Assembly: GCA_951406725.2 (NCBI GenBank)
Contig: OX597838.1
Location: 42,470,001-42,534,000, forward strand
DNA from: Octopus vulgaris
Taxonomy: Eukaryota
Length of the DNA stretch: 64,000 bases
Reading direction: 5' to 3'
This document shows, piece by piece, positions 34,514 to 34,655 of this stretch (its first letter is position 1; the number at the start of each line of letters is the position of its first letter). A model generated the notes under the pieces. The model had not been told where the DNA came from. It saw nothing but the letters and a program-made list of their open reading frames with translations, and made no database searches. The position numbers were made by a program, and so were the translations under genes.

Positions 34514-34655
34514 ACATTGAAAAATACCTTAGGAATGAGAACCCAGGTTTTAAATTTCCCCAAGACACCTGATGAAGGCTGGAGGGTATATCAGCTGAAA
34601 CATGTTAACAACAAACAAGATGAGGACAAATATCCGTGAAATGTAAATAATGTAT
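34514..34655 (+). mobile_element. Tail module of composite element, copy 2, with hammerhead-like core
   Basis: gacac-CTGATGA-aggctg-gagggtatat-cagct-GAAAC-atgtt at 34564-34606. Confidence 0.75.

What the first reader, a model, noticed from the sequence alone, without database searches (positions are those of the whole stretch)
34564..34606. Degenerate minimal type I hammerhead ribozyme motif in both tail copies
Seen: gacac-CUGAUGA-a-GGCUG(gagggtatat)CAGCU-GAAAC-AUGUU, where the stem III region AACAUGUU is palindromic. The other copy (23842->23800, minus) reads gacag-CUGAAGA-a-GGCUG..CAGCU-GAAAC-GUAUU. Established: CUGANGA/GAAA cores with a short palindromic stem III are characteristic of dimeric minimal hammerheads in Penelope-like elements. 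Limit: stem I does not close properly in either local copy, so both may be inactive.
Basis: partly seen in the sequence, partly recalled or inferred. Interest (0 to 1): 0.7.

Follow-up and report, generated by a model that had tools for sequence, protein, structure and literature searches.

The report
Octopus jumping element with hammerhead ribozyme
The motif is a real but broken self-cutting RNA of a known Penelope type; here it sits in the tail of a repeated octopus element that starts with a tRNA-like promoter and looks copied by Penelope enzymes, a pairing I did not find described in the papers I could search.

Summary
The motif is there and beats chance. It is a minimal type I hammerhead of the Penelope-like element (PLE) kind. 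The two copies are not independent. They are the arms of one 11-kb head-to-head insertion: a full arm (tRNA-like head with A/B boxes, AAT array, tail, 35-nt extension) and a 5'-truncated inverted arm without the extension, both ending in (TA)n. That is the published PLE insertion signature, and the 88-nt distance from cut site to end matches autonomous PLEs (80-89 nt). Host: octopus. Best reading: a tRNA-headed, SINE-like element mobilised by a PLE (0.58). Not shown: cleavage, pol III transcription, the octopus partner PLE, and that the head belongs to the whole family rather than to this insertion only.

The parts
34564..34606 (+). Minimal type I hammerhead, copy A: stem I 5' arm 34564-68, core C3-A9 34569-75, extra A 34576, stem II 34577-82 with 34591-96, G12-A15.1 34597-34600; 3 nt missing after 34601/2, so no cleavage triplet
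23800..23842 (-). Minimal hammerhead, copy B: same 3-nt loss, A at position 7, C2.1 changed to G; refolds into another hairpin
34514..34654 (+). PLE-type tail of the inverted (plus) arm; ends 53 nt after the expected cut site, without the extension, in TATG/(TA)n
23752..23892 (-). PLE-type tail of the full (minus) arm
23717..23751 (-). 35-nt extension present on this arm only; ends 88 nt after the expected cut site, then (TA)n
   Evidence: the same extension follows in 2052 RNA reads
23896..32903 (-). AAT/AGT microsatellite between head and tail, 9 kb here, with two later inserts
32906..32977 (-). tRNA-like head of the full arm: A box 32971->32961, decayed B box from 32928, canonical spacing
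   Evidence: ARAGORN tRNA-Ser(act)-like at 85% threshold, 0 of 2000 shuffles called; no call at default threshold; boxes
32978..33026 (+). Inverted, 5'-truncated copy of the head (lacks the A box, keeps the B box at 33002); forms a long hairpin with the full head
   Evidence: 46 of 53 positions match; fold z -12.9
33027..33515 (+). AAT run of the inverted arm, interrupted by an ATC-tailed repeat (about 33037-33474)
33516..34513 (-). 3' piece of an unrelated LINE (zf-RVT), lying between the AAT run and the tail of the inverted arm; read as a later insertion
   Evidence: RNA depth is 0 over 34460-34508 while the tail is deep

Best explanation
The motif is the minimal, dimer-type hammerhead of a Penelope-like 3' end. 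In octopus that end has been joined, through an AAT spacer, to a tRNA-derived pol III head, giving a short non-coding element that borrows the reverse transcriptase-endonuclease of an autonomous PLE (most likely Penelope/Poseidon type). Steps. (1) Pol III transcribes head, spacer and tail [inferred from A/B boxes]. (2) The PLE protein binds the tail, nicks (TA)n DNA and starts reverse transcription inside the RNA at one of two sites, about 53 or 88 nt past the ribozyme cut site [the two ends are shown here; the chemistry is borrowed from PAc, PMC11167929]. (3) Resolution leaves a full arm and an inverted 5'-truncated arm head to head [geometry shown]. (4) Later the AAT spacers grew and took in other elements [shown]. 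The hammerhead is intact in the family majority [shown] but has no closed stem III as a monomer, so it should cut only with a partner or with protein help [inferred]. A cut would part the promoter from the priming site, so in this element the motif is probably kept as part of the recognised 3' end or as a vestige. Both local copies are dead [inferred from sequence].
For: Family majority restores G10.1-C11.1 (C at 34596 in 68-82% of depth or reads, four runs), palindrome AACGUU, GUU and a 5-bp stem I; in organism F the closing G.U pair is G-C in 78% of depth; among the rows shown, the one large non-CpG variant inside the core is at free position 7 (16% in two runs). The same core plus stem II finds 17 outside loci: 17 of 17 have U16.1, which was not in the pattern; stem I covaries (4 of 5 pairs change on both sides; score 0.288 against 0.088, 0 of 500 shuffles; 12 rows); 8 of 17 loci (3 families) have PLE ORF similarity just upstream; 3 of them end in (TA)n 80, 80 and 89 nt after the cut, against 88 nt here. 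PAc: cut 26 nt and priming 111-118 nt after the start codon, that is 85-92 nt apart, plus an optional 30-40-bp tail. Inverted 5'-truncated copy, one-sided 30-40-bp tail and (TA)n target are the PLE signature (PMC8557442), and all three are here. Both arms share T at 34551, a state held by at most 0.2-1.4% of contig depth and 3% of RNA reads. Upstream loose ends are AAT arrays in 1037+277 RNA reads and in 79 and 213 contigs. O. vulgaris has 190 PLE families, 6.83% of the genome.
Against: The head-tail link is seen in this one insertion only; protein searches meant to show it elsewhere found nothing, and no genome was held. No octopus PLE with this tail was found: no PLE ORF in the window, and none of the short tail or head words tried occurs in the Craig 2021 supplement, which holds octopus Naiad and Hydra consensi. 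The head passes ARAGORN only at a relaxed threshold, at which the window gives 8 calls; Rfam tRNA does not hit. No pile-up of RNA ends at the cut site and no strand bias in 6815 reads. No two-sided compensatory change was seen within the octopus family; a T>A at 34605 (9% of a small depth in organism F) would break stem I unless compensated; only 40 of 112 variant rows and 24 of 740 loose-end rows were shown. Both arms carry a T4 run before the ribozyme, which would hinder pol III read-through of this copy.
Confidence: 0.58

Rival explanations
1. Bare PLE stubs: the tail family is just the 5'-truncated 3' end of an autonomous PLE whose UTR holds an AAT run, and the tRNA-like head is a one-off neighbour that was copied along in this single event.
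For: Most minimal hammerheads in animal genomes are lone motifs from truncated PLEs (PMC4209133). The head was seen only here. 16 contigs of organism F carry a different, non-AAT sequence before 34527. 0 of 17 outside loci have a tRNA-like call within 400 nt upstream.
Against: The head lies at the centre of both arms, runs straight into the AAT spacer on both, and the inverted arm is truncated inside the head, so head and tail were on one template. The best-supported upstream loose ends are AAT arrays in three of four runs.
Confidence: 0.24
2. An ordinary LINE-mobilised tRNA SINE (for example by Dong/R4, RTE or Tx1) that picked up a PLE end as a passenger; the inversion comes from twin priming or a DNA-level fold-back duplication.
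For: Octopus has abundant SINEs (11.6%) and active Dong-R4, RTE, CR1 and Tx1 LINEs; such LINE pieces lie inside this very locus. (TA)n is common in the window. 5' inversions by twin priming are known for L1 (recalled, no call).
Against: The inverted repeat stops exactly at the element's short end, flanks are not duplicated, and the 35-nt extension is on one side only. The distance from cut site to end matches PLEs. No poly(A) end.
Confidence: 0.13
3. The motif is a chance look-alike inside a repeat and never was a ribozyme.
For: No Rfam hammerhead hit; copy A folds no better than shuffles (z 0.83); conservation of core against flank is inconclusive; no RNA ends at the site.
Against: 0.005 expected per window; the family majority, which the descriptor never saw, supplies stem I, the triplet, the palindrome and G10.1-C11.1; the same motif sits behind PLE ORFs elsewhere.
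Confidence: 0.03

Closest known systems
Minimal hammerheads (min-HHR) in pLTRs of metazoan Penelope-like elements (Cervera and de la Pena 2014, PMC4209133)
   Same: CUGANGA/GAAA core, extra base between 9 and 10.1, G10.1-C11.1, short stem I, palindromic 15.2-16.2, most copies dispersed, some pairs on opposite strands
   Different: Here no PLE ORF precedes the motif; an AAT array does, and at this locus a tRNA-like head
Endonuclease-bearing PLE insertions (Craig et al. 2021, PMC8557442; PAc, Frangieh et al. 2024, PMC11167929)
   Same: Inverted 5'-truncated copy, 30-40-bp extension at one end only, (TA)n target, about 85-90 nt from ribozyme cut to far end
   Different: Non-coding, with a pol III-type head; no RT or GIY-YIG; no partial tandem seen
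Schistosome SM-alpha / Sj-alpha SINE-like elements (seen only through PMC6765202 and PMC8490949)
   Same: Pol III-type promoter followed by a type I hammerhead in a short repeat
   Different: Those carry a canonical, active hammerhead and often lie in tandem; in the passages read no PLE partner is named; this one has a minimal motif, a PLE-type end and head-to-head geometry
Animal non-LTR retrozymes and non-autonomous PLEs such as Chlamys MRC1 (PMC7229834, bioRxiv 10.64898/2026.07.22.740005, PMC8557442)
   Same: Non-coding, type I hammerhead (retrozymes), proposed or likely PLE-mobilised
   Different: Retrozymes are head-to-tail tandems that make circular RNA; no tRNA head is described for them in the text read; this locus is head to head
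Octopus tRNA-derived SINEs of Ohshima and Okada 1994 (title and OR1 seen in PMC4824008; paper not read)
   Same: Octopus, tRNA-derived, short
   Different: Could not compare sequences; this family may be one of them or may stand in Repbase, Dfam or the Zenodo library of PMC13282606 without the ribozyme noted

Membership tests
PLE minimal type I hammerhead | Core CUGANGA and GAAA around stem II | tested here: met
   Both copies
PLE minimal type I hammerhead | Unpaired base between 9 and 10.1; G10.1-C11.1 | tested here: met
   Extra A at 34576; C11.1 in 68-82% of the family, G.U in both local copies
PLE minimal type I hammerhead | Stem I of 4-5 bp | tested here: met
   Met in the family majority (5 bp); not met in either local copy
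PLE minimal type I hammerhead | Palindromic 15.2-16.2 and an NUH triplet | tested here: met
   Family AACGUU and GUU; lost in both local copies
PLE minimal type I hammerhead | Covariation or higher conservation of core and stems within the family | tested here: inconclusive
   One one-sided change and a position-7 variant fit; one variant may not; 40 of 112 rows seen. Two-sided covariation shown only across outside families
PLE minimal type I hammerhead | Self-cleavage as a dimer | not testable with these tools
   No pile-up of RNA ends; PAc also shows none in RNA-seq
Autonomous Penelope-like element | ORF with RT and GIY-YIG between pLTRs | tested here: not met
   No tblastn hit of three PLE ORF pieces in the window at E<=1; no GIY-YIG among 16 of 51 window ORFs scanned
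PLE-type insertion | Inverted 5'-truncated copy next to the 5' end | tested here: met
PLE-type insertion | 30-40-bp extension at one end only | tested here: met
   35 nt on the minus arm only
PLE-type insertion | AT-rich or (TA)n target | tested here: met
   (TA)n on both flanks; weak, as (TA)n is common here
tRNA-derived SINE | tRNA-like head with A and B boxes | tested here: met
   Relaxed ARAGORN call, 0 of 2000 shuffles; boxes at canonical spacing, B box decayed at its CpG in opposite ways in the two arms
tRNA-derived SINE | Non-coding, dispersed, many copies | tested here: met
   10630, 22190 and 4782 contigs laid in three runs, with unlike flanks; tested for the tail only
tRNA-derived SINE | Head and tail form one unit across the family | tested here: inconclusive
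   One insertion only; searches found nothing
tRNA-derived SINE | 3' end shared with an autonomous partner | tested here: inconclusive
   Motif and spacing are PLE-like, but no partner with this tail was found
tRNA-derived SINE | Transcription by pol III | not testable with these tools
   The one RNA run shows both mate orientations equally
Non-LTR retrozyme | Head-to-tail tandem units, each with a hammerhead | tested here: not met
   Two copies, head to head
Non-LTR retrozyme | Circular RNA | not tested
   The laid stretch held one tail only

The most novel reading that the evidence does not exclude
A high-copy, tRNA-promoter SINE whose partner is a Penelope-like element and not a LINE: a pol III head fused to a PLE 3' end with its minimal hammerhead, spread across several octopus species and inserted with PLE geometry. 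If both arms took their shared defects from the RNA template, this locus also records a natural PLE-type insertion made from an RNA whose ribozyme was already dead, matching the in vitro result that cleavage is not needed.
Probability: 0.5. Interest if true: 0.68.

Novelty: new variant of a known kind. Interest (0 to 1): 0.5.

Why it matters
The hammerhead alone is ordinary. The carrier is less so. SINEs are defined as passengers of LINEs, and small-RNA heads on LTR elements have been described as a separate type (title and abstract of PMC10886601). A tRNA-headed passenger of Penelope elements would add a third pairing. It would also give thousands of short natural substrates for an open question: what the PLE hammerhead is for, and which part of the 3' end the PLE protein needs. 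One can ask directly whether ribozyme-dead subfamilies kept spreading. For octopus genomics it may reclassify part of the many unclassified SINE families (893 of 900 recently active SINE families in PMC13282606).

Tried and rejected
Own-genome search and file: none held. A 28-nt flank pattern found 0 matches in prokaryote, viral and metagenome collections; the core pattern found 0 in viral and prokaryote collections. Rfam: no hammerhead, no tRNA on the head, only hairpin look-alikes. Protein word searches with tail or head translations found nothing; the profile-free HMMER search gave 8 hits, 7 of them short translations of other copies and 1 unrelated long protein. Other core-like hits rejected: 56664(-) lies in a frame that reads like a CR1-type LINE (name recalled), 56915(+) is a similar sequence on the other strand; 16484(-) scores 8.9 bits. 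The LINE beside copy A as the tail's owner: rejected, opposite strand and no joint coverage. Window RT at 38517-39572 as PLE partner: no similarity. Octopus Naiad/Hydra as partner: no shared short words, and the Hydra-1_Obim hammerhead differs; line breaks in that file could hide a word. PDB search with a PLE ORF: 0 hits. Copy number from summed depth: not used, the tool warns against it. The family-majority ribozyme was not folded as a whole; only the stem pairings were scored. Lunse et al. 2017 was not held.

Full report
Observation. Copy A (34564-34606, +) and copy B (23842->23800, -) read as stated. They lie in a 141-nt stretch shared at 94%, with 8 differences. A strict descriptor finds these 2 sites and 0.005 per shuffled window (200 shuffles, AAT array removed). 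Rfam has no hammerhead match. In copy A the arm that should close stem I follows C15.2 directly, leaving no U16.1-H17; copy B keeps 2 bp of stem I and prefers another hairpin. Both look dead.

The family. No genome was held. The tail is held by 19 of 24 listed runs at half its words or more, from six coded organisms A-F; 3 runs are marked as possible sources. I laid one RNA run (organism D) and three contig sets (C, E, F) on 34460-34660 (shares computed). The majority differs from the local copies just where they fail. C stands at 34596 (71% of RNA reads; 75, 68, 82% of contig depth), giving G10.1-C11.1. G stands at 34602 (75-79%) and three more bases follow 34600-34602 (186+386+684 RNA reads; 895 more reads end loose there). 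So the family reads GAAAC-GUU-GUGUU: palindrome AACGUU, triplet GUU, and a 5-bp stem I with GACAC. In organism F the closing G.U pair is G-C in 78% of depth. The one large non-CpG core variant shown is at free position 7 (16% in C and E). Against: G12 changes to A in 1.4-5% of depth and 14% of RNA reads; a change at 34605 (9% of a small depth in F) could break stem I; 72 of 112 rows were hidden. So 'core more conserved than flank' is inconclusive. There was no pile-up of RNA ends and no strand bias among 6815 reads. The best hit of the tail's translation is an uncharacterised Octopus bimaculoides entry, so the host is an octopus.

Same motif elsewhere. A pattern of core plus stem II found 17 metagenome loci; none matches the octopus tail or head by blastn at E<=0.1. 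All 17 have U16.1, which the pattern did not ask for; 5 of 17 have G at position 17. In 12 rows (5 duplicates or near-duplicates dropped: L007, L008, L010, L012, L016) stem I covaries: 4 of 5 pairs change on both sides, score 0.288 against 0.088, 0 of 500 shuffles, 65% of stem I cells paired (the tool warns that related rows can beat shuffles, and stem II was fixed by the pattern). [quoted passage not shown] Three end in (TA)n 80, 80 and 89 nt after the cut; a fourth locus without ORF match has (TA)n at 31 nt; 13 show none within 300 nt. A model from the 12 rows ranks the two window copies first.

One insertion, two arms. Reading the minus strand from 32977: a tRNA-like head, a 9-kb AAT/AGT array, the tail, a 35-nt extension, (TA)n. 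Reading the plus strand from 32978: the same head without its first 25 nt (46 of 53 match; hairpin z -12.9), an AAT run broken by an ATC-tailed repeat and a LINE piece, the tail, no extension, (TA)n. The arms share rare states, above all T at 34551 (0.2-1.4% of contig depth, 3% of reads), plus T at 34596 and the 3-nt loss. PMC8557442 (passages) lists for PLE insertions an inverted 5'-truncated copy, a 30-40-bp extension often at one end only, and (TA)n targets. PMC11167929 (main text read) ties that optional tail to two internal priming sites, the named one 111-118 nt into an ORF whose ribozyme cuts at 26 nt. Here the ends lie 53 and 88 nt past the cut. One search shows both end classes: 2052 RNA reads run on into the extension, while hundreds of contigs leave near 34654 into unlike flanks. 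The shared defects came either from an already broken template or from later conversion between the arms; I cannot tell which. One outside translation (P0008) shows the same 3-nt loss, so it recurs or marks a subfamily.

The head. ARAGORN calls it tRNA-Ser(act)-like at 85% of its threshold, against 0 of 2000 shuffles, though the window gives 8 calls at that setting and none at default. The A box is at 32971->32961; the B box has decayed at its CpG, to TG in one arm and CA in the other; spacing is that of a tRNA gene (box consensus recalled). Family-wide, what precedes the tail is an AAT array (1037+277 reads, 79 and 213 contigs; 24 of 740 loose-end rows shown), but reads and contigs did not reach across it, so the head is proven only for this insertion. 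No other head copy is in the window.

How it most likely works. Pol III makes a head-spacer-tail RNA; a PLE protein binds the tail, nicks (TA)n and primes internally; resolution gives a head-to-head pair. The hammerhead has no closed stem III as a monomer. Such motifs cut weakly and only as multimers (PMC4209133, parts 1-2 of 4 read), and PAc inserts without cleavage. As a cut would part promoter from priming site, the motif is likely a retained recognition region or a vestige here. Shown: motif, family majority, geometry, end spacing. Inferred: pol III, partner, chemistry, cleavage. Confidence 0.58; bare PLE stubs 0.24; LINE-mobilised SINE 0.13; chance motif 0.03.

Comparison and novelty. It works like a non-autonomous PLE and carries a member of the known min-HHR class. 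It is not an autonomous PLE (no ORF) and not a tandem retrozyme. The nearest analogue for pol III plus hammerhead is schistosome SM-alpha (passages of PMC6765202 and PMC8490949; original papers not seen). Ten full-text searches showed no paper describing a tRNA-headed PLE passenger or a hammerhead in an octopus SINE; most listed papers were seen as listing and abstract start only. Read further: bioRxiv 10.64898/2026.07.22.740005 (parts 1-3 of 5; supplements not seen), PMC13282606 (parts 1-2 of 3 and a supplement search; its Zenodo library not seen), and passages of PMC7229834, PMC4824008, PMC10886601, PMC6962438, PMC6685494. Ohshima and Okada 1994, Lunse et al. 2017, Repbase, Dfam and the figure supplements of PMC4209133 were not seen and could already hold this family. 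Verdict: new variant of a known kind; interest 0.5.

Noticed in passing
window 28916-29312 and 31028-31359 (-): Two near-identical 3' fragments (96%) inside the AAT array; one frame ends in a motif like the C-terminus of R4/Dong non-LTR elements, which target TAA repeats (family label recalled; translation).
   Followed up: partly
window 23896-32903: A 9-kb AAT/AGT microsatellite (about 2980 units) inside a single element arm; it could be a real expansion or partly an assembly effect.
   Followed up: no
window 34514-34654, run X23: RNA reads show A>G and T>C at 53 places against 32 for C>T and G>A; contig runs show 5 to 12, 8 to 28 and 7 to 9. This looks like A-to-I editing of inverted copies, but other changes are also raised in RNA and the runs are from different organisms.
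   Followed up: partly
window 34527, run X10 (organism F): 16 contigs carry a non-AAT sequence before 34527 (agreement 0.81), and another loop II and stem I variant appears in this run; a lead to the partner PLE or to another subfamily.
   Followed up: no
window 34653, run X23: 808 RNA reads leave the tail into one other AT-rich sequence, perhaps a strongly expressed single locus.
   Followed up: no
window 33037-33474 and many other places (e.g. 46473-46907, 44640-45589): An abundant ATC-tailed repeat with internal 62-nt units; it sits in the AAT run of the inverted arm and a related end follows copy A at about 34683.
   Followed up: no
window 38517-39572 (-), 43361-44575 (+), 12475-13101 (-), 20210-20623 (+): RT fragments of two LINEs (the second with an inserted PHD-like finger), an integrase core fragment, and a short ankyrin-repeat frame that may be a host exon.
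   Followed up: no
window 23415-23718: A 90-nt unit with (TA)n repeated 3.4 times at 99% identity directly flanks the minus arm.
   Followed up: no
window 9706-10153 and 5240-7857: Two other near-perfect inverted repeats (181 nt at 97%, 129 nt at 98%), not examined.
   Followed up: no
L010 1-2802 (-): A tandem PLE junction: end of an RT plus GIY-YIG ORF, the same hammerhead, then the start of the next ORF.
   Followed up: partly
window 2813-2850 (+): Third-best model match (17.5 bits, E 0.012): a core half with a stem I-like pairing and a shortened middle.
   Followed up: no
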